DNA of 64,000 nt, taken from the NCBI GenBank assembly GCA_964570275.1, contig CAZMXN010000003.1:33165-97164 (forward strand), written 5' to 3'. The position numbers and the translations under genes were made by a program. Within the stretch, counting starts at the first letter, position 1; every line of letters starts with the position of its first letter. The notes beneath the pieces are model-generated. The model was not told the DNA's origin. It worked only from the letters and a program-made list of their open reading frames with translations, and did not search any database. Shown piece by piece: positions 9,796-44,869 of the stretch. This stretch comes from an uncultured Candidatus Saccharibacteria bacterium (GTDB lineage Bacteria; Patescibacteriota; Saccharimonadia; Saccharimonadales; CAZMXN01).

Positions 9796-9856
9796 ACCTC
9801 TAGTATACCCGGTAAGTTGCTTTGGCAGCGGTTTTTAGGCCGGCCGATTATGTCCT

Positions 9857-12800: not shown

Positions 12801-14152
12801 CTTTCGGTGTAGATGCCGTCAGCGACATGGATAGTGCCGCCCTCAACGATGCGACTCATGGCGTCCTGGACTTTAGTGTAGGGATTCCAGGCGGACCCTT
12901 CGTCGCCAGTATTGCCGTTGGCTGCAGGCTGGACGTAGGTGTCAGACAGAAGTTTGATGCCACCGAACTGATTTTCGACCACGGCATCATTGTTCCGTTC
13001 ACTGATTTGAACAACCTTGCTGTCCGGGTATTCGTTAGTGCTGCCTGGGATAATCGCGATATCCAGCACGTTGCGATCAATCCCGGTGCCCCAGCTGTTG
13101 TTTCTGAAATTGATTACGGTGTCGGATAGGACGACCCAGCCTTTAGTGTGGGCGACATAGTTGTTCCTGATTTGGCCTGTAGCCTTGTCGTTGATGTAGG
13201 CGGGCTGGCGCACATGGACGAAGTCGTTGTTGCGAATGTCGAAGTCTTGAACGGTGCTTATTTCCAAGGCTCTTACAACGCTGCTGTCACCAATATTCCA
13301 TTGGCCGGTAAAGCTGTTGCCTAAGACACTGACATTGTCAGCTTGGACTTGAATCAAGTTATGTGGACCGACGTTGTCAGTTTTCTCAAACGCGATATCG
13401 CGGACTGTCGTGCCGTCGGCGGTAATCCTGAAAACCGGGTTGGTACCTGAGGTCTGGATGGTGGCGCCGCTATAACCGCGAACAGCAAGCTGCTTGTTAA
13501 TAACTATAGTAGAGGTGATAGCGTGGGTGCCGTTTAGGTGTAAGAGATCACCCGGAAAGGCCAGCGCTACCGCGTCAGCTAGCGTGTCGTAATAGAACTG
13601 CTGAGTAGCATTGAAGACCGCGTCGTGTGAAAACGATGGATTGGCAGCTTCCTTGCTGCTGACAGCTAAAATGCCGACCGACCGACGCTGACTGCTGTTG
13701 CCGCTGCTGCGGCCGTAAGTTTGCACGGCGGCCAGGCTTGGTATGTTCATTTGGTCGACCGGATCGGCGGATACACCGTCAAACAATTTAACGGTATCAC
13801 CGCTGTTGTTAAGCCAGTTGCCGCCAGCGTCAACAGCCAGGTAACCGTTGGCATTGATGACTGTACCGGCCGGCAAAACCTTCTCTTGAGTGGTGGCGTT
13901 ATCATCAAATCTTACTATCCAACCTGACACATCAGCGCCGGCTGGTCCGGCCAGCTCGACCCATTCGGTCGTTTCGTTGGAGCTAATCTCGTTAATATAA
14001 ACCGGGCTGCTCGAAAGTGCCGTAGCGGTCGACGCCGCCAAAAACGGGAACGCCGTAAGCAGGCCGCTGACTGACAGCACTAGGCTTATAAGGCCGGCCA
14101 GAAATCGGTGAATTAAGTTACTATTAGCCACCCCGTCAAGTTTGTCGCTCAT
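9857..14152 (-). CDS. Giant cell-surface protein (1431 aa) with a lamin-tail domain, parallel beta-helix repeats, Ig/FN3-like domains, a Gly/Thr-rich stalk and a C-terminal TM anchor
   Basis: There is an N-terminal signal/TM. The LTD-like segment is VYINEISSNETTEWVELAGPAGADVSGWIVRF...GTVINANGYLAVD. Many right-handed beta-helix-like N-x-T/S repeats follow (NVTFTGNNHITNNTKGLEI...). Repeated about 90-aa beta-sandwich segments contain W/Y (WQVRA..., YRLKVQAFDAVGN..., WQVRAIDHAGN...). A GGAGGGEVNGLSTGDTGGTTDGGTGGTGGTPDT low-complexity stalk precedes a C-terminal hydrophobic helix and an RRR tail. Confidence 0.7.
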   Translation of the reverse strand: MSDKLDGVANSNLIHRFLAGLISLVLSVSGLLTAFPFLAASTATALSSSPVYINEISSNETTEWVELAGPAGADVSGWIVRFDDNATTQEKVLPAGTVINANGYLAVDAGGNWLNNSGDTVKLFDGVSADPVDQMNIPSLAAVQTYGRSSGNSSQRRSVGILAVSSKEAANPSFSHDAVFNATQQFYYDTLADAVALAFPGDLLHLNGTHAITSTIVINKQLAVRGYSGATIQTSGTNPVFRITADGTTVRDIAFEKTDNVGPHNLIQVQADNVSVLGNSFTGQWNIGDSSVVRALEISTVQDFDIRNNDFVHVRQPAYINDKATGQIRNNYVAHTKGWVVLSDTVINFRNNSWGTGIDRNVLDIAIIPGSTNEYPDSKVVQISERNNDAVVENQFGGIKLLSDTYVQPAANGNTGDEGSAWNPYTKVQDAMSRIVEGGTIHVADGIYTESLKFLKHGTKLVGESQAGTVIETDGTKSYGIDITGLNDIDLSNLTLAVPAADSTVGYHFKVYKASRLTLTDLNFNGSGRLDTTPKRVGGLDFNSTRKVTLNNVTASNYSKNGFAITARFDASDNYSRDYTFNNVTADNNDWAGIAFYNVNSSGNFGHNITNVTFTGNNHITNNTKGLEIVGTSDPNVQALGAPGYSIVGPGNTPVDLGNTSFSGNDLMHIINYQVKNLNAAEARFDGKTGNEMTQSERDETELKITDKGDLASLGRVVFYNLPIHLSPADGTLTNSPGILDWTDVADAVAYQYQSAVNNALNPDGSLTSPIYTTEVNGSEIDASATGGGVYYWQVRAKFADGSFGAWTTPWQLIVDATAPEAAQFTSPTTGATLNGTVEIKVDISDNGAGLGQQQIVMRRPDNSIAGNWTYNVKTGASSVIAGTGTISYSGDANSGTLTITLDTSTLDDGQYNLRLFTKDVVGNGRSDIYNHFFTDNTKPSVQVVTPADKSFAGSSFTVEGTASDNQTSVVKVNYTVTEISALGGTHVGNIDSGTASGTTNWHFDVSGLSDGFYRLKVQAFDAVGNWKYHYNDVVVDTAAPTAPTITTPANEQYFSSTPILNQWTASSDTNGIDYYRIEYIYDDGHGFAGGPYRTVPGTTTWRNHVPSDAEQGGVTIRVQAVDAAGNASDWSAPVHYYYDSIAPNTPILQGPADGSVLNASASSPLTFTWDANGSTDVHMFEYTRSDLAATVTTAANNLPNIVLPDGAYTWQVRAIDHAGNTSLWSALWSFIVDNTPPSAVAGPDQSVTGQSAALNGSSDDAGATYAWAQTAGPGTATFSDSTAANPTVTVDQFGAYTFQLTTTDSAGNNSTDEVVVDFAEPSGGAGGGEVNGLSTGDTGGTTDGGTGGTGGTPDTNNAEESLGLTTADDETVTPLAATTGSDIAAAVTENLVSGSCSKILGLCWYLWIPIVGIVGIVAYIIRRRADTNDV

Positions 14153-24870: not shown

Positions 24871-27024
<2,154 letters not shown>

Positions 27025-27025
<1 letters not shown>

Positions 27026-27324
27026 TGGCTGATCCCAAAGCGTCCGCGCCGGCCGAAGGAGTTCGAACCAAAGACGGCAAACCGGTGATGCACGTTAAGG
27101 TCTACTCGCCGTTTCAAACTTATTTTGATGACGACGCCTACAGCATTACCGGCGCCAACCAGACCGGGCCGTTTGACGTGCTGCCGATGCACCACAACTT
27201 CATGACCCTGCTTATCCCTTGCGATCTGTTAATCCAGGCCCCGGACGGTGAAAAACAAATCAAAATCACCCGCGGCATTATGCACGTCAAGACCGACAAA
27301 GTGGTTGTCTTTCTGGACGTTTAA
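27025..27324 (+). CDS. atpC: F0F1 ATP synthase subunit epsilon
   Basis: This 99-aa ORF is start/stop coupled to atpD. It has an epsilon-like beta-sandwich N-terminus (...VYSPFQTYFDDDAYSITGANQTGPFDVLPMH...). Confidence 0.65.
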
Positions 27325-27325
27325 G

Positions 27326-28378
27326 CTAGTCGATGGCTACAAAATCGAAACTGAATGAGGCGCCGGCCGGCGGCGCGCTGGTGCTGCAGACACTGAAGCT
27401 GCTGGTGTTGCGGTTGATGTAGTAGTTGAGCCCGGCGGCGGCTGAACCGACCGGCGTAATGACGACGTGCGGTGTGCCGGCAAAAGCGTTGGCGAAGCGG
27501 ACGGTGATGAAGCAGCCGGCGCCCGGATTGCTGCCGGTGTTGATGGTGACGGTGCCGGCCGTGTCGGTGCCGCTAACCGAGCTGGTGCCGCCCGAACCCA
27601 GCGCGGAACCGTCCGTTTTGGTCGGCGTCGAACCGCCGGCATCGATATGGCGGTTGATCTGCAGATCGCGGTTGATCTGCAGGGTGTCTATGGTGATTTG
27701 CGGCGCCGAGATGGGGCCGGAGAATGTGCCGCCGCCGGTGACAGTAAGACCGTTTTGCACGGCCAGCGTACCCTCGACCGAGGCATTGCTGGCTACCTGC
27801 AAACTGTTGGCCTGCACCTGATCGAAACTGCTGGTGCCCGAAACGGTGATGCCCGGCAGGGTCATGGTGCCGCCGACCCGGATCGAACCGGCGACGTCCA
27901 GACTGTCCTGGATTAAAACTTTACCGGCGAAAATGGCGTTTGACTCAATGCTGAGGGTGAATTTCGGATCACCGATCACGGCGTCGCTGCCGCGCAGCTC
28001 TTCCAGAGTCTCCTCGGTAAGTTCCTGGGTGATGATTTGAGCTTCCTCCTGCTGGCGGTTGCGCTGGTAGGCGACGATGCTGGCCACGACGGCCAGCAGG
28101 ACCAGGAGACCGAAAATCAGCAGATAGATGTTGAGGTTGCGGAGCAGACCGTGGGCCCGCAGGCTGAACTTGTTAGGCTTTTTTGGTGCCTCGGCCGGCG
28201 GCTGATTGGGATTGTCGGCCGGCGGTGCGGCGACGGCGCCGTCTTCATTGGCGGCTTCGGGCGCCGGGCCGGCGCTGTCGGCCGAATTACTGCCGCTATC
28301 CACCACGGTGCCGGAAGCTTCCAGCGAGTTATCGCCTTCCAGCTGCGGTGCTGCCTGTTTCTCGGGATCATTATCCAT
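27326..28378 (-). CDS. Bitopic membrane protein with a Pro/Ala-rich N-terminus and an extracytoplasmic beta-helix-like repeat domain
   Basis: The TM helix reads IYLLIFGLLVLLAVVASIVAY. The C-terminal region carries repetitive Gly/Thr/Val beta-strand motifs (GSIRVGGTMTLPGITVSGTSSF..., an internal duplication LQINRDLQINR, TVTINTGSNPGAG). Confidence 0.5.
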   Translation of the reverse strand: MDNDPEKQAAPQLEGDNSLEASGTVVDSGSNSADSAGPAPEAANEDGAVAAPPADNPNQPPAEAPKKPNKFSLRAHGLLRNLNIYLLIFGLLVLLAVVASIVAYQRNRQQEEAQIITQELTEETLEELRGSDAVIGDPKFTLSIESNAIFAGKVLIQDSLDVAGSIRVGGTMTLPGITVSGTSSFDQVQANSLQVASNASVEGTLAVQNGLTVTGGGTFSGPISAPQITIDTLQINRDLQINRHIDAGGSTPTKTDGSALGSGGTSSVSGTDTAGTVTINTGSNPGAGCFITVRFANAFAGTPHVVITPVGSAAAGLNYYINRNTSSFSVCSTSAPPAGASFSFDFVAID

Positions 28379-28478
28379 CTTTTTATCTAAAAAGCCCGTT
28401 TCTCGGTAATGCTTACTTCTTTAGGCCTATGTTACCATAAAGCTAAAGCCATCAGCTAACTTGTAAGAAGCAACCAAA

Positions 28479-29150
28479 ATGCGCAAGTACCACTATCAGA
28501 CCAGCCTCCCCAAGCAATGGCGGCGCTGGCGCCGGGTGCATCGGACTTTTTTAATCCTGCTCGGTCTGCTGCTGCTGACGGCCGGGATTTTGTGGTGGTT
28601 TTACGGACATTATCTGCAGGATATTTCGCCTTTGAGTCAGCAAGGTGACCGGGAGCAGACGGTTTACCTGGGGCCGGAGCTTAAAACGGTCGAAGCCGAT
28701 GAGTTTATTTTTAAATCCGTCCACGATTGGGAGCTGGAAGCCGATGAATCGGCGCCGCCGGAAAGGTACGTTTACCGCAGCAGGCGCGACGGACTGGTAA
28801 TCAAGGAACTGACGGTTTACCGCGGCCGCGTGCCGGCCGATTTGGCGGTGACCATGCTGGTGCCGGCTACCACCGACGGCACCAAAATCTCGCCCGGCAA
28901 AGCCTCGCCCCGTTGTCCGGTTTCCGATGAGATCGTGCCAAAGCCGATCCGGCAGACTTACCGGGGGGTGGATTACTGGTGTGATACGGCACCGAGCGGC
29001 CGCGGCATCGGGGTCGCTCAGACCGGCCAGGGCTATGGTTTTCAGTTGTCCGGAGGGACGTTCGGGTTTCTGTATAAAGACTTAAGCGGCATTAACCTGC
29101 CTGATCCGATGGCCTTTTACGAGATTCTTAAAAATTTCGAGGCCAAATAG
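28479..29150 (+). CDS. Membrane-anchored hypothetical protein (223 aa)
   Basis: It has an N-terminal basic region and a TM helix (FLILLGLLLLTAGILWWFYG), followed by an extracytoplasmic domain. It is divergent from the 27326..28378 gene. Confidence 0.45.
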   Translation: MRKYHYQTSLPKQWRRWRRVHRTFLILLGLLLLTAGILWWFYGHYLQDISPLSQQGDREQTVYLGPELKTVEADEFIFKSVHDWELEADESAPPERYVYRSRRDGLVIKELTVYRGRVPADLAVTMLVPATTDGTKISPGKASPRCPVSDEIVPKPIRQTYRGVDYWCDTAPSGRGIGVAQTGQGYGFQLSGGTFGFLYKDLSGINLPDPMAFYEILKNFEAK

Positions 29151-29219
29151 CTTTTCCGGCTGTTTACGCCGCTTGCTGCGGCTCGGACAGGAGGGGTATA
29201 CTGCAGCATAAGAATAATT

Positions 29220-29957
29220 ATGTTGAGCAGAATAAAGACACTGATGCTGGTGGGATTGGTAAGCGGGCTGGTGCTGGCGGCCGGCGGTTCGCTGGTGCTG
29301 GCCCAATCGTCATCCAATAATTACCGGGTTGAGGAGACTTTCTTCGGCACCGGCGGCGAACGCGAAGCCTGTTCGGGCAGTTTTTGCGCCACCCAGTCGG
29401 CCGGCGAACTGACGGTCGGCAATACGGCCGGCGGTGATTTTCAGGCTCAAGCCGGCTTCAATACCACCGATCAGCCGATGCTGGAATTTATCGTGACCGG
29501 CGGCTCGCTCAATCTCGGCACGCTGAGTACCGGCTCAACGGCCACGGGCACCATGACGTTCAGCGTTCGCAATTACTTAAGTAACGGCTATGTCGTAACG
29601 ACAGTCGGCCAACCGCCGACCAACGGACCGGCCCAGATCGACCCCCTGACGTCGCCGACAGCTTCATCGGCCGGCAGTGAGCAGTTCGGCATGAACCTGA
29701 CGGCCAATACCCAGCCGACGACTTTCGGCGCCAACCCGACCCACGCGCCGGACAGCAGCTTCAGTTTCGGCGCGGCGCTGCCCGGCTATAACTCTCCCAA
29801 TCTGTATAAATACGTCGTGGGCGAGTCGGTGGCGGCATCGGATCGCAGCAGCGGCCAGACGATTTTCACGGTGTCCTATATCGTTAACGTCAGTCCGATT
29901 ACCGAAGGCGGAATTTACGAAACCGACCAGGTTTTCGTAGTCACCGGTACCTACTAA
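29220..29957 (+). CDS. Secreted beta-rich surface protein, paralog 1 (SCPU/Csu-pilin-like C-terminal motif)
   Basis: It has a signal peptide. The C-terminus GYNSPNLYKYVVG...TIFTVSYIVNVSPITEGGIYETDQVFVVTGTY is homologous to the C-terminus of the 32744..33784 protein. It ends in an alternating-hydrophobic strand like the SCPU xGxYxDTxTVTVxY motif. Confidence 0.5.
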   Translation: MLSRIKTLMLVGLVSGLVLAAGGSLVLAQSSSNNYRVEETFFGTGGEREACSGSFCATQSAGELTVGNTAGGDFQAQAGFNTTDQPMLEFIVTGGSLNLGTLSTGSTATGTMTFSVRNYLSNGYVVTTVGQPPTNGPAQIDPLTSPTASSAGSEQFGMNLTANTQPTTFGANPTHAPDSSFSFGAALPGYNSPNLYKYVVGESVAASDRSSGQTIFTVSYIVNVSPITEGGIYETDQVFVVTGTY

Positions 29958-30086
29958 TGACGGGCTTTGAGGCCGGGCCTGTGGATAAGTCCGGTAATTT
30001 TTAGTTGCAAATTATAGCGTTAGTGTTAATAATGGAGGTTATTCTAAGTAAATAAAACCAAAATCAAACGACCTAAGGAAAACTTA

Positions 30087-31304
30087 ATGTCAGACTACAC
30101 CCAAGCGGTGACGCAGCGACAGAAACGGCTGATAGTGGCTCTAGTCTATGCCCTGTCAGTAGGTCTGACCGGACTCGGACAGGTTTTCTTTGGGATGAAC
30201 GTCTTTGCCGGCCAGATGACCGAACGCCGGATTACCTTGAGTACTTCGGAGGCCGGCGCCTCCTCAACCTATGCCGTCAGCTTTAAGCCGACGGTCACCA
30301 CCAACATCCTCGGTATAGTGGTTGAACTGTGCGTCGACAGCCCGATTATCGGCGTGGCTTGTGATAAGACCAACGGCGTGACCAACGTACCGGTTACCGG
30401 GCAGGTCACGGTGTCGCATAACTCCGGCAGCGAAGACTTTAACGTGCACACCAACTCGACGGCTGACGGGCTGCTGATTCTGTCCCATGCCACCGGGTTG
30501 ACTTCGGTATCGACTTCGGAGGAAGTGACCTTTTCGTTCACGGCCACCAACCCGCCAACGGCCTGCGGCGGCGCCCCGTCGAATCGCTGTTCGTACTACG
30601 GCCGGCTGTTAACATACTCGGCCGAAGCCGACGCCCAAGGCTATGACGACGAAGCACCGGGCTCGTTTATCGACCAGGGCGGTATCGCGCTTAGCACCGC
30701 CAATCAGCTGACCGTTAACGCCCGGGTGCAGGAAGTCCTGCAGTTCTGTGTCGGCACCGATGACGCCAACACGGCCGGTGACGTCACCGACGACTGCAGC
30801 GATATCACCGGGACGGTGATTGACTTAGGTGTCGTGGATTCCACGCTGATTAATGAATCAGCCAATGATGCCGGCAAGGCCATGGTCAGAACCAATGCCG
30901 TCAACGGCGTGGAGATAGTCTATTATGCCGAACAGGAAAACGGCAGCGGTTCACTCAAAGTGCCGGGTGCGACCTGTGCTCCGCCGTCGCTTACCGACCA
31001 GTGTTTTAACAGCGTTGGTACGACCGAAACGGCCATTACCGCCGGGACTGAGAACTTCGGCATGACCTCTACCGGTGTCAATGTCTCGAACGGCATTACC
31101 ACCAATCTGACGCGTGACACGGATTATGACGCCGATGTCGGCTATGCCTGGGATGACAGCGGTTCAACCGATATCCTGGCCTCCTCGACAACAGTTGTAG
31201 ACGACGAGATGCTGGAGCTTAAGTTCGCGGCTACCGCCAGCCCGACCACCCCGACCGGCGCCTATACCGTCACCGCTACCTTCATCGCCACGGCAACGTT
31301 CTAA
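30087..31304 (+). CDS. Secreted two-domain beta-rich surface protein, paralog 2
   Basis: It has a signal/anchor. Two domains each carry a Cys pair (ELCVDSP...GVAC and LQFCVGTDD...DDCSD). The C-terminus PTGAYTVTATFIATATF is identical to that of paralog 3. The C-terminal half is about 70% identical to paralog 3. Confidence 0.5.
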   Translation: MSDYTQAVTQRQKRLIVALVYALSVGLTGLGQVFFGMNVFAGQMTERRITLSTSEAGASSTYAVSFKPTVTTNILGIVVELCVDSPIIGVACDKTNGVTNVPVTGQVTVSHNSGSEDFNVHTNSTADGLLILSHATGLTSVSTSEEVTFSFTATNPPTACGGAPSNRCSYYGRLLTYSAEADAQGYDDEAPGSFIDQGGIALSTANQLTVNARVQEVLQFCVGTDDANTAGDVTDDCSDITGTVIDLGVVDSTLINESANDAGKAMVRTNAVNGVEIVYYAEQENGSGSLKVPGATCAPPSLTDQCFNSVGTTETAITAGTENFGMTSTGVNVSNGITTNLTRDTDYDADVGYAWDDSGSTDILASSTTVVDDEMLELKFAATASPTTPTGAYTVTATFIATATF

Positions 31305-31470
31305 ACGCGCCAAGCAGCCGGCGAGAAGCTGCCAATAAGCGGCCGCCAACCGAAGATTGAGAACCGGAGACTTCCCCTTGTACAGAGGCAGCCTTGCTTT
31401 TTAAAGCGGTAGCGCTAATAATTGTTTTTGAGACAAGAGCAATTTAAAAGCAAACAGGGAAGTAGGGGAA

Positions 31471-32691
31471 ATGTTCAACGCTGGGGTCAGGAGCCGCCGT
31501 CTAACCGACGCAGCGACTGCATTTATGCTGATAGCGGCGCTGTTGGCACCAGTTTTCTACCCGCGGGCCGCGGCCGCCGAACAGCTGACGACCCGGAGCA
31601 TCACCCTGGGCAGCTCGGTCGCCGGCGCTACGGATGTGACCTACACGGTCACTTTCACCCAGGCGACCTACGGAGCGGCGCTGGAAGGCATCGTGATTGA
31701 TTTCTGCAGCAACAGCCCGATTGCCGGCCTGACCTGCACGACGCCCGCCGGTTTTGACGTTAATGAAAGCGGTTTGGCGGTGTCAGTCACGGGTATGGAC
31801 GGCGGCACGGCCTTTACTAAACACGCCAACACCGATACCAACACCCTGATTCTGACCCGAACCAACGCCACGCTGCAGACCGCCACCAATAACATAACGG
31901 TTACGCTGGGCGCCGGCGGCGGTTCGGACGGCATTACCAACCCGTCAACGGCTTGTGGCGGCACGCCGGCCGACAAGTGTACGTTTTACGCCCGCATCAT
32001 GACCTATGTCGACGACACCGCGGCGGCGGCCTACACCTCGACCAGCCCGGGCAGCTATCAGGATACGGGCAGCGTGGCGCTTAGTACGGCCAATCAGCTG
32101 ACGATTACGGCCCGGGTCCAGGAAGTTCTGCAGTTCTGCGTCGGCACCGAGGACGCTGATTCCAGCAATGACTGCGCTGACATAACCGGTACGATAATCG
32201 ATCTTGGTGTGGTGGACTCATCGCTGGTGGCGGCCTCGGCGGACGGCGCCGGTAAGGCCATGGTCAGAACCAATGCCGTTAACGGCGTGACAATCGGCTA
32301 TTACGCCGAGCAGAATGCCGGCAGCGGCCAGCTTAAAGTCGCCGGGGCCTCCTGCGCCGGCGGGTCATCGACCGACCAGTGCTTTAACAGCGCCGGCACG
32401 ACAGCCCAGGCGATTGTCGCCGGCACGGAAATGTTTGGCATGCGGGCCAATGCCGTCGATACTTCCAACGGCACGACAACCAACCTGGTACGGGACGCCG
32501 TTTATGCCTCGGCCGACTATGCCTGGGACGACTCCGGCTCACTCGATATAATCGCTTCGTCGGCCGGCTCCGGTGTCAAGGTGGTCGACGATGAGCTGGT
32601 CGAGCTGAAGTTCGCCGCCACGGCCGCCACCACTACTCCGACCGGCGCCTATACCGTTACGGCCACTTTCATCGCCACGGCAACGTTCTAA
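31471..32691 (+). CDS. Secreted two-domain beta-rich surface protein, paralog 3
   Basis: It has a signal peptide ending in the Ala-rich AAAE. It shares VQEVLQFCVGTEDAD...IDLGVVDS...AMVRTNAVNGV...FGM...YAWDDSGS...PTGAYTVTATFIATATF with paralog 2. Confidence 0.5.
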   Translation: MFNAGVRSRRLTDAATAFMLIAALLAPVFYPRAAAAEQLTTRSITLGSSVAGATDVTYTVTFTQATYGAALEGIVIDFCSNSPIAGLTCTTPAGFDVNESGLAVSVTGMDGGTAFTKHANTDTNTLILTRTNATLQTATNNITVTLGAGGGSDGITNPSTACGGTPADKCTFYARIMTYVDDTAAAAYTSTSPGSYQDTGSVALSTANQLTITARVQEVLQFCVGTEDADSSNDCADITGTIIDLGVVDSSLVAASADGAGKAMVRTNAVNGVTIGYYAEQNAGSGQLKVAGASCAGGSSTDQCFNSAGTTAQAIVAGTEMFGMRANAVDTSNGTTTNLVRDAVYASADYAWDDSGSLDIIASSAGSGVKVVDDELVELKFAATAATTTPTGAYTVTATFIATATF

Positions 32692-32743
32692 ACCGCCAAT
32701 CCGCCAGGGAGCCAGGCATTAGCGTATAATGGATGTTTAGAAT

Positions 32744-33784
32744 ATGCAGTCGGCAGTACGCAGAAAAATAATGGCCACGATCGGTCTGGTGACCTTACTG
32801 GTCGCGGCAGCGGCCCCGCCGGTTGCCGCCGGTAACCTGGCCAACCGGTCGCTGCGCGTCAGTACATCGGTGCCGGGCGTCGAGGCGTCGCATGAATTCC
32901 GGTTCACTTATCCGGGTACCGACCCGGTCGGATCGGTAGTGTTCGAGTATTGTCAGAACTCACCGCTGTTTGATCTGCCGTGCATTCCGCCGGCTGGCTT
33001 TGACGCTTTAGCCGGTAACCTGGGCGACCAGACCGGCGACACCGGCTTCAGTCTGCATGGCAGCACCACGGCCAACCGGATTGTTATCAGTCGCCCGCCG
33101 GCCGCCACCACCCCGGGGGAATCGCGCTATGTCTTCGCCCAGGTAATCAACCCCTCAACGCCCAGCCAGTCGGTTTACGTGCGGATTTCGACTTACGGCA
33201 GCGACGATGCCACGGGCCTGCCGGTTGATCAGGGCGCCCTGGTCTTCAGCACCGCCGGGGGATTGGGCGTCACGGCTTATGTGCCGCCTTATCTGGTGTT
33301 TTGCGTGGCCGTCAACGTCAGCGTGGACTGCTCGCAAACGGCCGGCAACTATCTGACTCTCGGTACGCTCACTGCCCGGTCGGCGGCGGCGGCTGCCAGC
33401 CAGATGGCGGCTTATACCAATGACGAGACCGGCTACGTCATCTCGGCCCTGGGCACATCCATGACTTCCGGTAATAACTTTATTCCGCCGCTGCTTAACC
33501 CCACTGCCAGCAATCCCGGTACGTCCCAGTTCGGCATCAATTTAAGGGGCAATTCGAATCCGGCCGTCGGCGAAGACCCGGACGGCAGCGGGACCGGCCT
33601 GGCCATGACCGGTTACGACTCGCCGAACCTGTTCAAATTTAACAGCGGCGATATCGTGGCCAGTTCGCTGCTGCCCACCGAATCCAACCGCTACACCGTC
33701 AGTTATCTGGTTAACGTCCCCGAAGGTCAGCCGCCGGGCATCTACACCACCACCCTGACTTACGTGGCCGTCGCCCAGTTTTAA
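32744..33784 (+). CDS. Secreted beta-rich surface protein, paralog 4
   Basis: It has a signal peptide. The segments FEYCQNSP..LPC, YLVFCVAVNVSVDC, QFGINL, GYDSPNLFKF and a C-terminal YTVSYLVNVPEGQPPGIYTTTLTYVAVAQF are homologous to paralogs 1-3. The true start may be the internal Met at about 32771. Confidence 0.5.
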   Translation: MQSAVRRKIMATIGLVTLLVAAAAPPVAAGNLANRSLRVSTSVPGVEASHEFRFTYPGTDPVGSVVFEYCQNSPLFDLPCIPPAGFDALAGNLGDQTGDTGFSLHGSTTANRIVISRPPAATTPGESRYVFAQVINPSTPSQSVYVRISTYGSDDATGLPVDQGALVFSTAGGLGVTAYVPPYLVFCVAVNVSVDCSQTAGNYLTLGTLTARSAAAAASQMAAYTNDETGYVISALGTSMTSGNNFIPPLLNPTASNPGTSQFGINLRGNSNPAVGEDPDGSGTGLAMTGYDSPNLFKFNSGDIVASSLLPTESNRYTVSYLVNVPEGQPPGIYTTTLTYVAVAQF

Positions 33785-33883
33785 ACTTAAGCGTGGCCCG
33801 CAAAAAAATGTTTCGCTTTTATCGGCTTGTTGCTAGAATAACCATCAAGCATCAATTGCAAAATACGGAGGGTTCGCTTTTTT

Positions 33884-34873
33884 ATGAACATGCTTAAGTC
33901 AGTCGGCCGGGCGCTGGGCTATATGCTGCTGCTCGGCTTATTTGTTGGCGGGACGACGGTGCTCGCCCAGGATTCGCAGAATCCCGGCAGCGGCCTGCAG
34001 ATAACCCCTACCCGTCACGAAGTTACCATTGAACCCGGCGCGGCCAGCACCATAACCATCGGGCTTAAGAATGTGTCAGGCGGCGAGGTGGTCGCCCAGG
34101 CCATCGTTAATGATTTTGAGCCGGATGACGATACCGGCGCGCCGCGGATCAATCCGGATGTCAACGCCGAAGGGCCGACCAGCATCAAGCCGTTCCTGCA
34201 GGGCCTCGAAGATGTGCCGCTGGCGGACGACGAGACCAAAGAGGTGACCCTTACTTTGAGCCTGCCGGAAGGCGTGTCGCCGGGGGCCTACTACGGTGTT
34301 ATCCGCTATCAGGCCGTGCCGGTGGAGGCGGGCGGCGAACCCGGTCAGGTCTCCCTGACGGCCAGTGTCGGTTCGATTGTTTTACTGGAAGTGCCGGGCA
34401 ACATCACTAAAAGCATGCGTCTGGATGCGCTCAGAGTCGAGCGTGACGGCGCAGCCAAGTCGCTGTTTTTCCTGGACGCGCCGGACCAGGCGGTTTTGAG
34501 CGTTACCAACACCGGCAACAGCTACATCAAGCCGTTCGGCAAGATCTCGATCAGCAAATCAGGCGACGAAGTTTACAGCTACGAGCTCAACAATGTCGAA
34601 CCGCGCGGTAACGTTCTGCCGGATTCGCTGCGTAATTTCCGCCACAGTGAAGACGAGTTTAAAAAGAAAGTCAGCGGTTTTGGCCGCTACACCATGGTCG
34701 CCAACATCGGTTTTGACGAGGGCAGCGAGGTGCTGACGATCACCGCGAGCTTCTGGGTAATTCCCCTGTGGTTCGTCATCACCGTTCTTGTGGTGCTGGT
34801 GCTCATCGCCGCCGCCGTATTCTACTTGCGCCGCAAGTCGCGGGCCGGCCATCCCCGCCGCGTCCGTCGCTGA
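33884..34873 (+). CDS. Membrane-anchored protein with a PapD/MSP-like (pilus-chaperone-like) N-terminal beta-sandwich, a C-terminal TM helix and a basic tail
   Basis: There is a signal peptide. LQITPTRHEVTIEPGAASTITIGLKNVSGGEVVAQAIVNDFE resembles the PapD_N pattern (v.l..TR.i.......s.tl.v.N.s....l.Q.wv). IKPFLQG..DVPLADDETKEVTLTL...GAYYGVIRYQAVP resembles the pf.vtPPlfrl.pg..q.lRi segment. The C-terminus is WVIPLWFVITVLVVLVLIAAAVFYLRRKSRAGHPRRVRR. The topology also resembles Firmicutes DUF916-type csc-locus proteins. All of this is inference. Confidence 0.45.
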   Translation: MNMLKSVGRALGYMLLLGLFVGGTTVLAQDSQNPGSGLQITPTRHEVTIEPGAASTITIGLKNVSGGEVVAQAIVNDFEPDDDTGAPRINPDVNAEGPTSIKPFLQGLEDVPLADDETKEVTLTLSLPEGVSPGAYYGVIRYQAVPVEAGGEPGQVSLTASVGSIVLLEVPGNITKSMRLDALRVERDGAAKSLFFLDAPDQAVLSVTNTGNSYIKPFGKISISKSGDEVYSYELNNVEPRGNVLPDSLRNFRHSEDEFKKKVSGFGRYTMVANIGFDEGSEVLTITASFWVIPLWFVITVLVVLVLIAAAVFYLRRKSRAGHPRRVRR

Positions 34874-34968
34874 CCGCCTGGCGTGCAAAAGCTGCCCGCC
34901 TTCCTTTACTCTGCTCGCGCTTAAAGCTGTCCCCGTGCTAAGATAAGGATAAGCATTAAACGAGTGAC

Positions 34969-35856
34969 ATGACACTAAGCCTGCATCAAAAAATATTCCT
35001 TAGCGGCGTCCTGATTCTGACCCTGGCTATCTGCGGGCTTTGGCCGGCCCGATCGGCTAGCGCCCAGTCCACCCAGAGCGGCTCAATCGGTATCGAGGGC
35101 ACCGTGCCGGGCGACCCGCCGACCCAGGGCGCGGTGATTTCCTTTCCGACAAACGGCCAGACGTTCAGCCAGACGCCGATCACGGTGAGGGGTATTTGCC
35201 CCGACGGTCTGCTGATCAAATTGTTTAAAAACAACGTGTTCGGCGGCTCGGTCGATTGCGCAAACGGCAGTTTCTCGATTGTGACCGATTTGTTTGACGG
35301 CCAGAACGACCTTGTTGCCAGGGTGTACGACGCTCTGGACCAGGCCGGTCCGGACTCGCCGACGGTGACGGTGACTTTCGATGATCCGCGGACCGTGCCG
35401 GGCCCGCGGGTGTCGCTGTCCAGCAACTACGCTAAACGCGGGGCCGATCCGGGCCAGACCCTGACCTGGCCAATCATCCTAAGCGGCGGCACCGGGCCGT
35501 ATGCTATCAGCGTCGATTGGGGTGACGGCTCCGAAGCCAGCCTGATCAGCCAGCCGTTTCCCGGCAGTTTCGACCTTGAGCATGTCTACGAGGCGGCCGG
35601 TGTTTACAACATCATCATCAAAGCCACCGACGTGGACGGCTTTACGGCTTATCTGCAGGTGGTAGGGGTGGGCAACGGCCCGCTCGGTCAGACCGGTGAT
35701 ACGGCCGATGCCGACGCCCAGACGATTGTCCGGACGGTTATCATCTGGCAGCCGCTGGTGTTGTTTGTCATCCTGCTATTTCTGGCGTTCTGGCTGGGCC
35801 GGCGGCACAGCCTGTACGCCCTGCGCCGTCAGCTGGAAGAGAGCAGCCGGCGATAA
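34969..35856 (+). CDS. PKD-domain surface protein with a C-terminal TM anchor
   Basis: There is a signal peptide. An Ig-like region is followed by the PKD signature ISVDWGDGSEASL...HVYEAAGVYNIIIKATDVDG (the WxxGDG...HxY...GxYxVxLxVxD pattern). The C-terminus has the TM helix LVLFVILLFLAFWLG and a basic tail. Confidence 0.55.
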   Translation: MTLSLHQKIFLSGVLILTLAICGLWPARSASAQSTQSGSIGIEGTVPGDPPTQGAVISFPTNGQTFSQTPITVRGICPDGLLIKLFKNNVFGGSVDCANGSFSIVTDLFDGQNDLVARVYDALDQAGPDSPTVTVTFDDPRTVPGPRVSLSSNYAKRGADPGQTLTWPIILSGGTGPYAISVDWGDGSEASLISQPFPGSFDLEHVYEAAGVYNIIIKATDVDGFTAYLQVVGVGNGPLGQTGDTADADAQTIVRTVIIWQPLVLFVILLFLAFWLGRRHSLYALRRQLEESSRR

Positions 35857-35877
35857 TCTGTTAAAATAGGCTGCGAT

Positions 35878-36972
35878 ATGTCAAAGAAGGTTTACGTCGG
35901 TATGAGCGGCGGGGTGGACTCGTCGGTGACAGCGGCTTTGCTGAAAGAGCAGGGACACAACGTCACGGGCGTGTTCATGAAGAACTGGACGCAGGATCTG
36001 CCCGGTTTCGACTGCCCCTGGAAAGCAGATTATCAGGACGCCAAGCGGGTGGCCGTCCAGCTAGGCATTGATTTTAAGGTTTACGATTTCCAGGATGAGT
36101 ACCGCCGTAAAGTCGTCGATTATATGATTGACGAGTATAAAGCCGGCCGCACGCCCAACCCCGACATCATGTGTAACCAGGAAGTTAAGTTCAAGCTGTT
36201 TCTTGAGACGGCGCTGGAGGACGGCGCCGAATTAATCGCCACCGGGCACTATAGCCGCGTCGCGGTCGGTCCACAGCTGACAGACAACCGACATCAGTTT
36301 CAACTGCTTACTGCCCGGAATACCGATAAGGACCAGTCCTACTTTTTGTATAGGGTGCCGGAGACGGCTCTTCAAAACAGCCTGATGCCAATCGGCGAGT
36401 TTCCGACCAAGGATGAAGTCAGGACGCTGGCCAGAAAATTCAAGCTCTATACGGCCGACAAGAAAGACAGCCAGGGCATCTGTTTTGTCGGCCGGGTGGG
36501 GATTAAGGAGTTTTTGCAGCAGTTTGTCGAGACCGAAGCCGGGCCGATCATTGACCAGCACGGTGCGACGATTGGCCAACACGACGGGGCGATTTTTTAC
36601 ACCATCGGCCAGCGTAAAGGCCTGCACGTCGGCGGCGGCCTGCCATACTACGTCGCCGGCAAGGACATGGACAAAAACATCGTTTATGTAACGACCGATC
36701 TGTCGGACGATAAGCTCTGGCGGCAGGAGCTCAAGCTGACCGATGTTCACTGGATCAACGGGCAGCCGGATCCAAGCCGGAAGTATCAGATACGCACCAG
36801 ATACCGGGCGCCACTGGTAGCGTGTACGCTAGATATAGCGCCTTCAACCGGCAATAATGACCAAACGACGCTACAGGTAGCGTTATCGGAGGCGGTGCGG
36901 GCCATAACGCCCGGCCAGTCGGCGGTGGTTTACGACGGCGAGCGGGTCTTGGGCGGCGGCATCGTCCTGTAG
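35878..36972 (+). CDS. mnmA: tRNA-specific 2-thiouridylase MnmA
   Basis: The PP-loop reads VGMSGGVDSSV. Catalytic Cys are seen at ...MCNQEVKF... and ...DSQGICFVG... Length is 364 aa. Confidence 0.9.
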   Translation: MSKKVYVGMSGGVDSSVTAALLKEQGHNVTGVFMKNWTQDLPGFDCPWKADYQDAKRVAVQLGIDFKVYDFQDEYRRKVVDYMIDEYKAGRTPNPDIMCNQEVKFKLFLETALEDGAELIATGHYSRVAVGPQLTDNRHQFQLLTARNTDKDQSYFLYRVPETALQNSLMPIGEFPTKDEVRTLARKFKLYTADKKDSQGICFVGRVGIKEFLQQFVETEAGPIIDQHGATIGQHDGAIFYTIGQRKGLHVGGGLPYYVAGKDMDKNIVYVTTDLSDDKLWRQELKLTDVHWINGQPDPSRKYQIRTRYRAPLVACTLDIAPSTGNNDQTTLQVALSEAVRAITPGQSAVVYDGERVLGGGIVL

Positions 36973-43654: not shown

Positions 43655-44869
43655 TTGGCCCTCGTTAGAGGCCCGCCGGTGCAAACGAGTGTTTATGGTG
43701 TAATCCACCAGGAGCTTTCTATTCGTACTTCAACACAGGCGTTAAGCCGACAAATAACCTCACATCTTAATCCGTTCAGCCGGAAGTCACTGCTCCGGCA
43801 GCTGGTCCGTCGGCTCTTTGGCCGGTCCAGGAAGCGTACCGTCCGCTACGGTATTTTCATTACCCAGGCGCTGGCCTTAATCGCCGTTGTCGGCGTTGTT
43901 TTATACGGGTCGGAAATCGGCGGCCAGAACCTTAAGCAGAATGCCCTGATGGCCACCACGCCGGAGACGGTCGCCGCCAATCCGCTGGACCAGTTATCTT
44001 CGGCCGATGTCGCCGAGCAATTGGCCCGCCTGGGCAATTTCGAAGAGCGCATTGCCGTGATCAACCATGCCGACACCGTTAATTCGCAGCTTAACCGGGG
44101 CGTCGCCGATGAACTTATTGTGACCAAGCCGCAAGTCGTGGCCACCGAAACCCTGTCCAATAAAGACATCAAAACCTACGTTGTCAAAAACGGCGATTCG
44201 CTGGCCGATCTGGCCGCCCGGTTTGGCGTCACCAGCGATTCGATCCGCTGGTCCAATGGCCTGTCCGGCAGCTATTTGCGGCCGGGCACCAAGCTGTACA
44301 TCAGCCCCATCAGCAACGGCGTAGTTTATAAAGTCAAATCCGGTGATACCGTAAAGGCGCTGGCTGAACGCTTCCGGTCCAGCGAAGAAAAGATCATTAC
44401 TTTCAATGACGCCGAGATCGCCGGGCTGAAAGCCGGCGACCGCATCGTTATTCCTGACGGCTCTTTGCCGGCCCCGTCGGCACCGTCGTACACCGGGCTG
44501 GCCAGCAACCTGGGCACCCGCGGCCGCTTACTCACTTACGGCGGCAACGGCTACGATTACGGCTGGTGTACCTGGCACGTGGCTAACCGCCGGTCTCAGA
44601 TCGGCCGGCCGATCCCCAACCACCTGGGCAACGCGATCAGCTGGTACAACATTGCCCGCAATGCCGGTTTACCGGTCGGCGGTGAGCCGAAAGTTGGCGC
44701 CGTCTTGTGGCACGCCAATATCGGCGGTCTGGGGCACGTAGCGTTTGTCGAAAGCCGGAATGACGACGGTTCCTTCGAGGTGTCTGATATGAATTACCCT
44801 TACTGGGGACGCGTCACGACCAGAACAATTACGCCGGACGAGTTCGGGAACTACCGCTTCATTTACTAA
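43655..44869 (+). CDS. Peptidoglycan hydrolase with two LysM domains and a C-terminal CHAP domain
   Basis: The LysM-like segments are YVVKNGDSLADLAARFGVTSDSIRWSNGL and YKVKSGDTVKALAERFRSSEEKIITFND. The CHAP segment is ...GWCTWHVANRR...GHVAFVESRNDDGSFEVSDMNY (Cys/His catalytic residues). The start codon is uncertain because the track ORF may begin upstream of the true start. Confidence 0.7.
   Translation: MALVRGPPVQTSVYGVIHQELSIRTSTQALSRQITSHLNPFSRKSLLRQLVRRLFGRSRKRTVRYGIFITQALALIAVVGVVLYGSEIGGQNLKQNALMATTPETVAANPLDQLSSADVAEQLARLGNFEERIAVINHADTVNSQLNRGVADELIVTKPQVVATETLSNKDIKTYVVKNGDSLADLAARFGVTSDSIRWSNGLSGSYLRPGTKLYISPISNGVVYKVKSGDTVKALAERFRSSEEKIITFNDAEIAGLKAGDRIVIPDGSLPAPSAPSYTGLASNLGTRGRLLTYGGNGYDYGWCTWHVANRRSQIGRPIPNHLGNAISWYNIARNAGLPVGGEPKVGAVLWHANIGGLGHVAFVESRNDDGSFEVSDMNYPYWGRVTTRTITPDEFGNYRFIY

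What the first reader, a model, noticed from the sequence alone, without database searches (positions are those of the whole stretch)
29220..35856. Candidate chaperone-assisted (usher-less) surface fibre locus: four SCPU/Csu-pilin-like paralogs, a membrane-anchored PapD-like protein and a PKD-domain anchor
Four tandem signal-peptide proteins (245, 405, 406 and 346 aa) are clearly homologous to one another. They share Cys-pair beta-strand motifs (LQFCVGT...C, YLVFCVAVNVSVDC), FGM/FGIN motifs and C-termini (GAYTVTATFIATATF / GIYTTTLTYVAVAQF / YETDQVFVVTGTY). These resemble the SCPU/Csu pilin pattern (Cys-containing N-terminal strand, xGxYxDTxTVTVxY C-terminus). Immediately downstream is a 329-aa protein. 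Its N-terminal domain matches the PapD_N/MSP-like chaperone pattern (LQITPTRHEVTI...TITIGLKNVSGGEVVAQAIV; IKPF...DVPLADDETKEVTLTL...YQAVP). It is tethered by a C-terminal TM helix and basic tail rather than being soluble. A PKD-domain C-terminally anchored protein follows. No usher-sized beta-barrel gene is present, consistent with a single-membrane envelope. The arrangement is analogous to, but not recognisably homologous with, Firmicutes csc/WxL loci (DUF916 anchored protein plus secreted partners). Taken together, this may be a previously undescribed donor-strand/chaperone-type pilus or sheath assembly adapted to a monoderm (possibly CPR-like) cell. Two more envelope proteins of unknown function (27326..28378, 28479..29150) lie immediately upstream and may belong to it.
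Basis: partly seen in the sequence, partly recalled or inferred. Interest (0 to 1): 0.85.

Follow-up and report, generated by a model that had tools for sequence, protein, structure and literature searches.

The report
Pam pilus operon of a Saccharibacterium

Summary
All six ORFs exist exactly as described, and the four secreted proteins are true paralogs. The locus is an ortholog of the Pam pilus operon of Ca. Mycosynbacter amalyticus (bioRxiv 10.64898/2026.03.03.709456).

- **A (29220-29957):** scores above NCBIfam's equivalog cutoff for the tip pilin PamT.
- **F (34969-35856):** scores above the equivalog cutoff for the anchor PamR.
- **A and D:** pass the Pam pilin C-terminal domain model.
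- **B and C:** full-length relatives of D, with a sandwich NTD, a conserved linker and a CTD.
- **Synteny:** the order atpAGDC – U1 – PamT – 0-4 major pilins (1-2 in 44 of 51) – D – E – F – mnmA recurs in dozens of Saccharimonadia MAGs.

- The pilins are not SCPU/Csu members by sequence.
- F is PamR, with only a weak PKD signal.

Pilin-to-WxL-domain homology was tested and not detected. Verdict: a new member of a known kind, with a modest added insight.

The parts
29220..29957 (+). PamT-type tip pilin (A, 245 aa; mature ~22 kDa). It has only the pilin C-terminal domain, preceded by a short region of three 'S-x-NY-x-[AV]' repeats. It has no donor linker.
   Evidence: NCBIfam NF058579 CPR_pilus_PamT equivalog, 314.6 bits (cutoff 240), and NF058581, 163 bits. 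It aligns only to the CTD of D and B.
30087..31304 (+). Major-type two-domain Pam pilin B (405 aa; mature ~37 kDa): N-terminal beta-sandwich, linker, C-terminal acceptor domain, and four Cys pairs.
   Evidence: 54% identical to C, and 27% identical to D over the full length. NF058581 scores 29 bits, below the cutoff. hhalign to the D family gives E 5e-43. The AF2 model has pLDDT 87, with the NTD at 45-203, a low-confidence unstructured linker at 204-217, and the CTD at 218-405.
30678..30755 (+). Putative donor-strand linker plus first CTD strand of B (aa 198-223, GGIALSTANQLTVNARVQEVLQFCVG).
   Evidence: This is the most conserved stretch of the 48-member family: windows 212-223 at 3.95 bits and 198-209 at 3.58 bits, against a mean of 2.63. 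In the monomer model the linker part (aa 204-217) is unpaired, with pLDDT about 66-75; aa 198-203 and 218-223 are modelled as strands. The preprint shows that the linker is the donated strand in PamA/PamB.
31471..32691 (+). Second major-type Pam pilin C (406 aa), a tandem paralog of B. Its equivalent linker lies at aa 200-225 (nt 32068-32145).
   Evidence: The copy number of this pilin type ranges from 0 to 4 among 51 related loci.
32744..33784 (+). D-type two-domain pilin (346 aa; mature ~33 kDa). It is PamE-like by position (last pilin before the chaperone), with its linker at aa 164-189 (nt 33233-33310).
   Evidence: NF058581 scores 165 bits (cutoff 55). It is present once in nearly all related loci, immediately upstream of the chaperone. 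The PamE assignment is inferred from gene order in the preprint and was not tested by direct alignment.
33884..34873 (+). Membrane-anchored PapD-like/WxLIP-like chaperone (E, 329 aa; PamC/PamD-type): signal peptide, two Ig-like domains, a C-terminal TM helix (aa ~293-317, nt 34760-34834) and a basic tail.
34280..34393 (+). F1-loop-G1 hairpin of chaperone domain 1 (aa 133-170, PGAYYGVIRYQAVPV...VSLTASVGSIVLLEV), the candidate strand that complements the pilin groove.
   Evidence: It is among the most conserved segments of the family, together with the N-terminal strand at aa 35-46. The loop at 147-160 has lower pLDDT. There is a weak resemblance to the CfaB F strand plus donor strand (E 0.017). 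The role is inferred by analogy with PapD G1 and with the WxLIP hairpin.
34969..35856 (+). PamR terminator/anchor (F, 295 aa): signal peptide, a conserved N-terminal strand (aa ~37-51, nt 35077-35121), two Ig/FnIII/PKD-like domains, and a C-terminal TM (aa ~257-277, nt 35737-35799).
   Evidence: NCBIfam NF058578 CPR_pilus_PamR equivalog, 392.5 bits (cutoff 300). The conserved mature N-terminus is 'sGSvGxeGt..pPP'. PKD similarity is weak.
27326..28378 (-). Conserved divergent neighbour U1 (350 aa): disordered N-terminus, one TM, then a beta-helix-like repeat region and a C-terminal Cys-pair domain. It is probably the 'tail fibre-like protein' of the preprint's neighbourhood analysis. Its membership in the system is unproven.
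   Evidence: Present in 49 of 51 complete loci between atpC and PamT. It has a weak bactofilin-like hit below cutoff. See the preprint text.
28479..29150 (+). U2 (223 aa), an N-terminally anchored protein of unknown function. It is poorly conserved and probably not a core component.
   Evidence: Detectable in only 19 of 51 loci, at 21-32% identity. No family hits were found.

Best explanation
The region is a core pam (CPR Pam pilus) operon of an uncultured Saccharimonadia bacterium.

**Proposed mechanism (by homology to the M. amalyticus system)**
1. All six products are exported by Sec.
2. The two-domain pilins (B, C, D) have a C-terminal Ig-like domain with an open groove. In the filament, that groove is filled by the conserved inter-domain linker strand of the neighbouring subunit. 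This is donor-strand exchange, with the donor being internal rather than an N-terminal extension.
3. Before polymerisation, the groove is capped by a strand of the membrane-tethered two-lobed chaperone E. The F1-G1 hairpin of its domain 1 is the likely cap.
4. Because E sits in the cytoplasmic membrane of a cell without an outer membrane, no usher is needed.
5. PamT (A) has an acceptor domain but no donor linker, so it nucleates the distal tip.
6. B/C-type subunits form the shaft, and D (PamE-like) is the proximal adaptor.
7. PamR (F) inserts its conserved N-terminal strand into the last pilin. This terminates growth and anchors the fibre through its C-terminal TM helix.
8. The fibre probably mediates contact with the host bacterium of this episymbiont.

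**What is shown here**
- Gene content and paralogy.
- Family membership of A, D and F.
- The predicted folds of B and E.
- Conservation of the linker and of the chaperone strands.
- Conserved synteny.

**What is inferred**
- Filament formation by these particular proteins.
- The order of subunits.
- Which chaperone strand is donated.
- The biological role.
For: - **Family models:** NCBIfam equivalog hits above cutoff for PamT (A) and PamR (F), and the Pam pilin C-domain model for A and D.
- **Published system:** the preprint describes the same gene set, with cryo-EM evidence of donor-strand exchange through the linker. It also reports TM-anchored PapD/FimC-like chaperones, no usher, and ATP synthase plus a tail-fibre-like neighbour.
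- **Paralogy:**
- **B model:** NTD, an unstructured low-confidence linker, and a CTD. The linker and the C-terminal strand are the most conserved parts.
- **F:** conserved N-terminal strand.
- **Synteny:** conserved in 51 complete loci of Saccharimonadia MAGs, with the order atpAGDC-U1-PamT-pilins-D-E-F-mnmA-alaS-ftsA.
- **Excluded features:** no LPxTG, type IV prepilin or WxL motifs. No second chaperone or extra pilin in the 64-kb window.
Against: - I could not align the window proteins directly with the M. amalyticus PamA/B/C/D/E sequences. They are not in the PDB copy and were not retrievable.
- B and C score below the NF058581 cutoff, at 29 and 26 bits.
- No complex prediction could be run, so donor-strand complementation is not shown for these proteins.
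- Fold searches with B return only generic Ig-like sandwiches, with no CU pilin.
- This operon has one chaperone and lacks the PamB-PamC module of M. amalyticus.
- The chaperone role of PamC/D rests on predictions in the preprint too, not on experiment.
Confidence: 0.85

Rival explanations
1. The locus encodes a non-filamentous cell-surface complex of the WxL/Csc type. In this reading the anchored protein E (a WxLIP homolog) holds secreted partner proteins on the cell wall as an adhesin complex, rather than assembling a polymeric pilus.
For: E's family is homologous to WxLIP domain 1, and its best structural match is WxLIP 9i1y. The architecture SP-Ig-Ig-TM is identical. The one-domain versus multi-domain partner pattern (PamT vs B/C/D) parallels small versus large WxL proteins.
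Against: The partners have no WxL domain. PF13731 is never hit, hhalign gives Prob <=1.3%, and there are no WxL motifs and no LPXTG protein. A, D and F pass models built for the Pam pilus, whose PamA/PamB subunits were solved as filaments by cryo-EM.
Confidence: 0.08
2. It is a bona fide classical chaperone-usher system (SCPU/Csu-type archaic pili) whose usher lies elsewhere in the genome.
Against: There is no sequence-level match of E to PapD_N or FimC, or of the pilins to Fim pilins. E is membrane-anchored. The conserved synteny in 51 loci never includes an usher-sized gene. CPR/Saccharibacteria lack an outer membrane (preprint). The conserved candidate donor strand is internal, not an N-terminal extension.
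Confidence: 0.02
3. The proteins are unrelated secreted Ig-like adhesins or glycan-binding proteins that merely share beta-sandwich folds, and E is an anchored lectin or peptidoglycan-binding protein with no assembly role.
For: B's fold searches return only generic Ig-like, cohesin and adhesin sandwiches. DUF916 was named a peptidoglycan-binding domain on the basis of docking predictions.
Against: The operon order is strictly conserved. The inter-domain linker and the chaperone edge strands show the highest conservation. There are equivalog-level matches to PamT and PamR, and cryo-EM filaments exist for homologous pilins.
Confidence: 0.05

Closest known systems
Pam pilus system of Candidatus Mycosynbacter amalyticus (PamT, PamA, PamB, PamE, PamC, PamD, PamR; bioRxiv 10.64898/2026.03.03.709456; NCBIfam NF058578/NF058579/NF058581)
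   Same: - The same protein families (A = PamT and F = PamR at equivalog level; A and D carry the Pam pilin C domain).
- Two-domain pilins with a conserved linker.
- A TM-anchored two-lobed chaperone, and no usher.
- The same neighbourhood (ATP synthase and a conserved TM/beta-helix protein).
- The same phylum-level lineage (Saccharimonadia).
   Different: - This operon has a single chaperone, and no separate PamB-PamC module within 64 kb.
- It has two tandem ~37-kDa shaft-type pilins with four Cys pairs each. The reported values are 55.3 kDa for PamA (two pairs) and 38.7 kDa for PamB (three pairs).
- The one-to-one naming of B, C, D and E against PamA/B/E/C/D was not tested by direct alignment.
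Classical chaperone-usher pili of Gram-negative bacteria (Pap/Fim, CFA/I, archaic Csu/SCPU)
   Same: - The mechanism proposed for Pam: Ig-like subunits with an open groove, completed first by a chaperone strand and then by a neighbouring subunit's strand. This is donor-strand exchange, shown by cryo-EM for PamA/PamB only and inferred here.
- A tip subunit that lacks a donor strand.
   Different: - No usher and no outer membrane.
- The chaperone is membrane-anchored.
- The donor strand is an internal linker between two domains.
- The subunits have an extra N-terminal sandwich domain.
- No sequence-level homology is detectable.
WxL/Csc surface-protein clusters of Firmicutes (WxLIP = DUF916 + DUF3324 + TM; small and large WxL proteins; LPXTG protein)
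   Same: - The anchored component is homologous. Pfam PF06030 is hit in 34 of 44 E homologs (best 39.5 bits; cutoff 27.3).
- tblastn of a CPR homolog to Enterococcus WxLIP gives E 6e-7.
- hhalign gives Prob 92-97%.
- The SP-Ig-Ig-TM architecture is identical.
- The genes are clustered with secreted one-domain and multi-domain partners.
- For WxLIP, AlphaFold predicts insertion of a beta-hairpin strand into the partner (PMC10599100).
   Different: - The partners are not WxL-domain proteins by any sequence test here.
- Domain 2 shows no sequence similarity to DUF3324.
- There is no LPXTG protein.
- The Pam partners PamA and PamB form filaments (cryo-EM, M. amalyticus), whereas WxL proteins are described as peptidoglycan-bound surface proteins.

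Membership tests
CPR Pam pilus system | PamT tip pilin (NCBIfam NF058579 equivalog, cutoff 240 bits) | tested here: met
   A scores 314.6 bits over residues 9-245, covering the whole model.
CPR Pam pilus system | PamR RbmA-like terminator/anchor with a C-terminal TM (NF058578 equivalog, cutoff 300 bits) | tested here: met
   F scores 392.5 bits. It has a TM at aa ~257-277 and a conserved N-terminal strand.
CPR Pam pilus system | Pam pilin C-terminal domain (NF058581, cutoff 55 bits) in the pilins | tested here: met
   A scores 163 bits and D scores 165 bits.
CPR Pam pilus system | The shaft pilins B and C belong to the same pilin family | tested here: inconclusive
   NF058581 gives only 29.4 and 25.6 bits, below the cutoff. 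However, they show full-length homology to the D family (hhalign Prob 100%, E 5e-43). No direct comparison with PamA/PamB sequences was possible.
CPR Pam pilus system | [quoted passage not shown] | tested here: met
   The AF2 model of B shows two beta domains, with an unpaired, lower-confidence linker at 204-217. The linker is the most conserved segment.
CPR Pam pilus system | PapD/FimC-like chaperone carrying a C-terminal TM helix | tested here: met
CPR Pam pilus system | [quoted passage not shown] | tested here: met
   atpAGDC and U1 lie upstream both in the window and in related loci (U1 in 49 of 51). No usher-sized gene occurs in the operon.
CPR Pam pilus system | Subunits polymerise by donor-strand exchange into a filament | not testable with these tools
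   This needs multimer prediction or cryo-EM. It is shown only for M. amalyticus PamA/PamB.
Classical chaperone-usher pili | Chaperone matches PapD_N/PapD_C sequence families | tested here: not met
   There is no PF00345 hit for E or for any of its 44 family members. hhalign against FimC gives Prob 0.1%.
Classical chaperone-usher pili | Pilins match the Fimbrial (PF00419) or SCPU (PF05229) families | tested here: not met
   No window pilin gives a hit. Only 1 of 64 (Fimbrial, E 0.0031) and 2 of 64 (SCPU, E 0.033) D-type homologs do so. hhalign against FimA/I/F/G gives Prob 0.9%.
Classical chaperone-usher pili | Outer-membrane usher gene in the cluster | tested here: not met
   None is present in the operon or in the conserved flanks of 51 loci.
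Firmicutes WxL/Csc cluster | WxLIP N-terminal domain (PF06030 DUF916/WxLIP_PGBD, cutoff 27.3 bits) | tested here: inconclusive
   The window's E alone scores only 11.7 bits, E 0.26. Its family is clearly related. 34 of 44 members hit at E<0.01, and of the ten scanned individually six are above the cutoff, up to 39.5 bits. tblastn gives 6e-7. hhalign for domain 1 gives Prob 92-94%.
Firmicutes WxL/Csc cluster | WxLIP second domain (DUF3324) by sequence | tested here: not met
   There is no Pfam hit. hhalign of domain 2 gives Prob 0.1%. Only structural co-linearity with 9i1y is seen (187 residues aligned).
Firmicutes WxL/Csc cluster | Partner proteins carry a WxL domain (PF13731; dual WxL motifs) | tested here: not met
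   PF13731 was not among the families reported for the three pilin-family alignments (159 members, including A-D). hhalign gives Prob <=1.3%. No WxL motif occurs in A-F.
Sortase-dependent Gram-positive pili / type IV pili | LPXTG sorting signal, or a class III prepilin signal | tested here: not met
   No LPxTG motif and no G[FM]TLxE-type motif is present in A-F.

The most novel reading that the evidence does not exclude
The Pam pili of CPR bacteria and the WxL/Csc surface-protein clusters of Firmicutes may be two branches of one ancient, monoderm-specific, usher-less 'anchored-chaperone' assembly system.

The anchored components (PamC/D and WxLIP) are homologous. That part is supported here for domain 1 and for the overall architecture. 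The further, unproven step is that their clients (Pam pilin C-domains and WxL domains) are also related acceptor domains completed in trans by a donated strand.

If so, Firmicutes WxL proteins would be handled, and perhaps polymerised, by donor-strand complementation.
Probability: 0.2. Interest if true: 0.7.

Novelty: new member of a known kind. Interest (0 to 1): 0.35.

Why it matters
The Pam pilus is a recently recognised assembly route for surface fibres. It uses donor-strand exchange without an usher, in bacteria with a single membrane. It is probably how many Saccharibacteria reach their host cells.

This window adds one more orthologous operon. It shows the common 'core' layout: PamT, usually one or two shaft pilins (here two), a PamE-like pilin, one chaperone, and PamR.

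The useful new point is that the anchored chaperone is a sequence-detectable relative of the WxL-interacting protein (DUF916/WxLIP) of enterococci, lactobacilli and Listeria. Neither the Pam preprint nor the one WxLIP paper I text-searched (Hassan et al. 2023) makes that connection. It offers a testable hypothesis for what WxLIP does, namely acting as a chaperone by strand complementation, and for where the Pam machinery came from.

Tried and rejected
- **PDB sequence searches.** Searches with B, the B-family profile, F, the E-family profile, P0104 and U1 found no PamA/PamB entry and nothing significant.
- **AFDB libraries.** These were unavailable. A structural test of Pam CTD against WxL domains could therefore not be made.
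- **hhalign against Fim proteins.** The E family against FimC, and the D family against FimA/I/F/G, were negative.
- **Pilin CTD = WxL domain hypothesis.**
  - It was motivated by motif resemblance: 'R..NG[YV]x[IV]' vs 'DxRGxxAGWxL', and 'YTTTLTYVA' vs 'YSTTLTWEL'.
  - It was tested with three WxL alignments and three pilin families. All gave Prob <=1.3%, with no PF13731 hits.
  - It is rejected at sequence level and left open at structure level.
- **hhalign with the TM helix removed.** Only domain 1 of E is sequence-related to WxLIP. The 266-column alignment is partly carried by the TM segment and co-linearity.
- **PHROGs scan of U1, U2, A, D, E, F.** Nothing was found.
- **Promoter and terminator scan of 27000-36200.** Counts were no higher than in shuffled sequence.
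- **Inverted repeats around the chaperone gene.** The search, prompted by its inversion in two MAGs, found nothing convincing.
- **Direct mapping to the M. amalyticus accessions.** This could not be done. The single genome-contig scan returned only the best 80 of 299 loci, and that genome was not among them.

Full report
**Observation**

The four secreted proteins are genuine paralogs.
- B and C are 54% identical over their full length (E 1e-119).
- Each is 27% identical to D over the full length (E about 1e-16).
- A matches only the C-terminal 152 residues of D (37.5% identity, E 9e-20).

I built family alignments from the protein database and from 80 related loci, then compared them by hhalign.
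- D family vs B/C family: Prob 100%, E 5e-43, 344 columns.
- A family vs the C-terminal domain of the B/C family: Prob 95.8%, E 7e-9.

These are the invariant Cys pairs, the FG[MI]N motif and the GxYTxTxT[FY] C-terminus. All six proteins begin with a signal-peptide-like segment. E and F also end in a TM helix with a basic tail.

**What it is**

Pfam finds nothing above threshold in any of the eight proteins. NCBIfam (release 20, June 2026) identifies the locus.
- A passes the equivalog model 'CPR-type pilus protein PamT' (314.6 bits; cutoff 240).
- F passes 'pilus system RbmA-like protein PamR' (392.5 bits; cutoff 300).
- A and D pass the domain model 'Pam pilus system pilin subunit' (163 and 165 bits; cutoff 55).
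- B and C score 29 and 26 bits, below the cutoff.

These models derive from a 2026 preprint (bioRxiv 10.64898/2026.03.03.709456). Its main points are these.
- Cryo-EM of filaments from Ca. Mycosynbacter amalyticus identified two pilins, PamA and PamB.
- Each subunit's linker fills the groove of its neighbour, which is donor-strand exchange.
- The operon also encodes a third two-domain pilin (PamE) and a single-domain tip pilin without a linker (PamT).
- It encodes two PapD/FimC-like chaperones that carry a C-terminal TM helix (PamC, PamD).
- It encodes an RbmA-like anchored terminator (PamR).
- There is no usher.

**Evidence gathered here for the individual parts**

- Chaperone-usher chaperones aligned over 129-185 residues: CfaA 11.8, YadV 10.9, SafB 10.6, CsuC 10.5, FimC 10.5, EcpB 9.9, PapD 9.6.

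The most conserved segments of the family are the first strand (aa 35-46), the F1 strand (133-144) and the G1 strand (156-167). A lower-confidence loop lies between the last two. These are the edge strands that cap subunits in CU chaperones. That this hairpin is the donor is my inference.

*B, a shaft pilin.* An AF2 model from 48 sequences has pLDDT 87 and pTM 0.60. It has an N-terminal sandwich (45-203) and a C-terminal beta domain (218-405). The linker at 204-217 is left unpaired, with pLDDT about 66-75. The linker with the first CTD strand (aa 198-223), and the last strand (387-398), are the most conserved parts of the family. This matches the preprint's statement about PamA/PamB.

Fold searches with this model find only generic Ig-like sandwiches and no CU pilin. 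The PamA/PamB structures are not in the PDB copy.

*F, the anchor.* Its family has a conserved mature N-terminus, 'SGSvGxEGt..pPP'. This fits the extra N-terminal strand that the preprint proposes inserts into the last pilin. Its second domain has only weak PKD-like signals.

**Conservation**

One scan of GTDB species representatives with the E-family profile found 299 loci. The 80 retrieved are almost all labelled Saccharibacteria or Saccharimonadales MAGs, apart from unclassified 'bacterium' records and single records labelled Babeliales and Parcubacteria.

The order atpA-G-D-C, U1 (opposite strand), [U2], PamT, B/C-type pilins, D-type pilin, E, F, mnmA, alaS, ftsA is kept throughout. Among the 51 loci that span A to F:
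- the number of B/C-type genes is 0 (2 loci), 1 (22), 2 (22), 3 (4) or 4 (1);
- U1 is present in 49;
- U2 is detectable in 19.

Profiles of the chaperone and pilin families find no further copy elsewhere in the 64-kb window. This genome's operon therefore has one chaperone and lacks the PamB-PamC module of M. amalyticus.

The assignment D = PamE-like and E = PamD-like rests on gene order only. The preprint's accession order is PamT, PamA, PamE, PamD, PamR. I could not obtain the reference sequences.

1. *The pilins are not SCPU/Csu or Fimbrial family members by sequence.* None of the window pilins hits those models. Only 3 of 64 D-type homologs do so faintly. hhalign against FimA/I/F/G is negative. 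E has no sequence match to PapD_N or FimC. The relation to chaperone-usher pili is one of fold and mechanism.

2. *The statement that the locus is 'not recognisably homologous' to csc/WxL loci does not hold for E.*
   - 34 of 44 E homologs hit Pfam PF06030 (WxLIP_PGBD = DUF916) at E<0.01. Of the ten scanned individually, six are above the gathering score, up to 39.5 bits. The window's own E scores only 11.7 bits.
   - tblastn of a CPR homolog against plasmids returns nine Enterococcus 'DUF916 and DUF3324 domain-containing' genes. The best has E 6e-7 and 34.6% identity over 121 aa.
   - hhalign of the E family against six Enterococcus WxLIPs gives Prob 96.8%, E 3e-10.
   - After removing the TM helix, hhalign gives Prob 92-94% (E 1e-7 to 5e-7). 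This is confined to domain 1; domain 2 is not detectable. Negative controls give Prob <=2%.

   The Pam preprint never mentions WxL or DUF916. The WxLIP paper never mentions chaperones, pili or CPR. No paper in the library holds 'WxLIP' together with 'PapD' or 'chaperone'. The WxLIP paper does report that AlphaFold predicts insertion of a DUF916 beta-hairpin strand into the WxL domain. That is mechanistically what a chaperone would do.

3. *I tested whether the clients are also related (Pam pilin C-domain vs WxL domain).* The motifs look alike, and PamT vs two-domain pilins parallels small vs large WxL proteins. The result was negative. There are no PF13731 hits, hhalign gives Prob <=1.3% against three WxL alignments, and there are no WxL motifs. 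A structure-based test could not be run.

**Mechanism and confidence**

I put about 0.85 on this being a functional Pam pilus operon that works as the preprint proposes. The steps are Sec export, capping of pilin grooves by the anchored chaperone, and nucleation by PamT. Elongation follows by linker-strand exchange of B/C, then D. PamR terminates the fibre and anchors it.

Shown here are family membership, folds, conservation patterns and synteny. Polymerisation, subunit order and the host-contact role are inferred by homology.

The rivals are much less likely.
- A WxL-like non-filamentous surface complex: 0.08.
- Unrelated Ig-like adhesins: 0.05.
- A classical CU system with a distant usher: 0.02.

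**Novelty and interest**

The system is already described and already has curated HMMs. This locus is a new member of a known kind, in an uncultured Saccharimonadia genome. Its chaperone is at most 55% identical to any retrieved species representative, and identical proteins occur on Logan and NCBI metagenome contigs.

The added value is the chaperone-WxLIP homology, which suggests a shared origin with the Firmicutes WxL clusters. I score overall interest at 0.35. For the broader 'one monoderm anchored-chaperone superfamily including the clients' reading, I estimate probability about 0.2 and interest about 0.7 if true.

Noticed in passing
L026:8987-12030 and L050 (same region, around 8760-12115): In two different Saccharimonadia MAGs the chaperone gene alone is inverted in place between the D-type pilin and PamR genes. 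In L026 the ORFs are F 8987-9901 (-), E 10007-10981 (+) and D 10984-12030 (-). No convincing flanking inverted repeats were found, so it is unclear whether this is a real rearrangement, a switch or an assembly artefact.
   Followed up: partly
L022 ~16510, L041 ~15015, L064 ~11637, L083 ~13485 (also L039 ~8045, L082 ~8883): Several related genomes carry a second, divergent PamR-like gene (28-35% identity to F) between alaS and ftsA, outside the pam operon.
   Followed up: no
window 30087-32691 and related loci: The number of tandem B/C-type shaft pilin genes varies from 0 to 4 among 51 complete loci. This window has two copies at 54% identity, which suggests ongoing duplication and diversification of the exposed shaft subunit.
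   Followed up: partly
window 34280-34393 (E aa 131-174): The F1-loop-G1 region of the chaperone family weakly aligns (E 0.017, not significant) with the CfaB F strand plus the donated strand 'ITVTASVDPVI' in the donor-strand-complemented CFA/I fusion proteins 3f85/3f84.
   Followed up: no
window 29304-29490 (A aa 29-90): PamT-family proteins have a conserved N-terminal region with three short 'S-x-N-Y-x-[AV]' repeats ahead of the acceptor domain (consensus). It may be the tip's binding surface or a self-capping element.
   Followed up: no
window 9857-14152 (-): A 1431-aa protein with bacterial Ig-like, PKD-like and Y_Y_Y domains, which is another large putative surface protein about 15 kb upstream of the pam operon.
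   Followed up: no
window 27326-28378 (-): U1 has a Pro/Ala-rich disordered N-terminus, one TM, and a repeat region that weakly resembles bactofilin beta-helix (23.6 bits, below the cutoff; PDB 6ria E 0.7). It is almost always adjacent to the pam operon (49 of 51 loci) but transcribed divergently.
   Followed up: partly
window 43655-44869 (+): A secreted LysM + CHAP peptidoglycan hydrolase is encoded downstream, among cell-division and housekeeping genes (YceG, Obg). It may be relevant to an epibiotic lifestyle.
   Followed up: no
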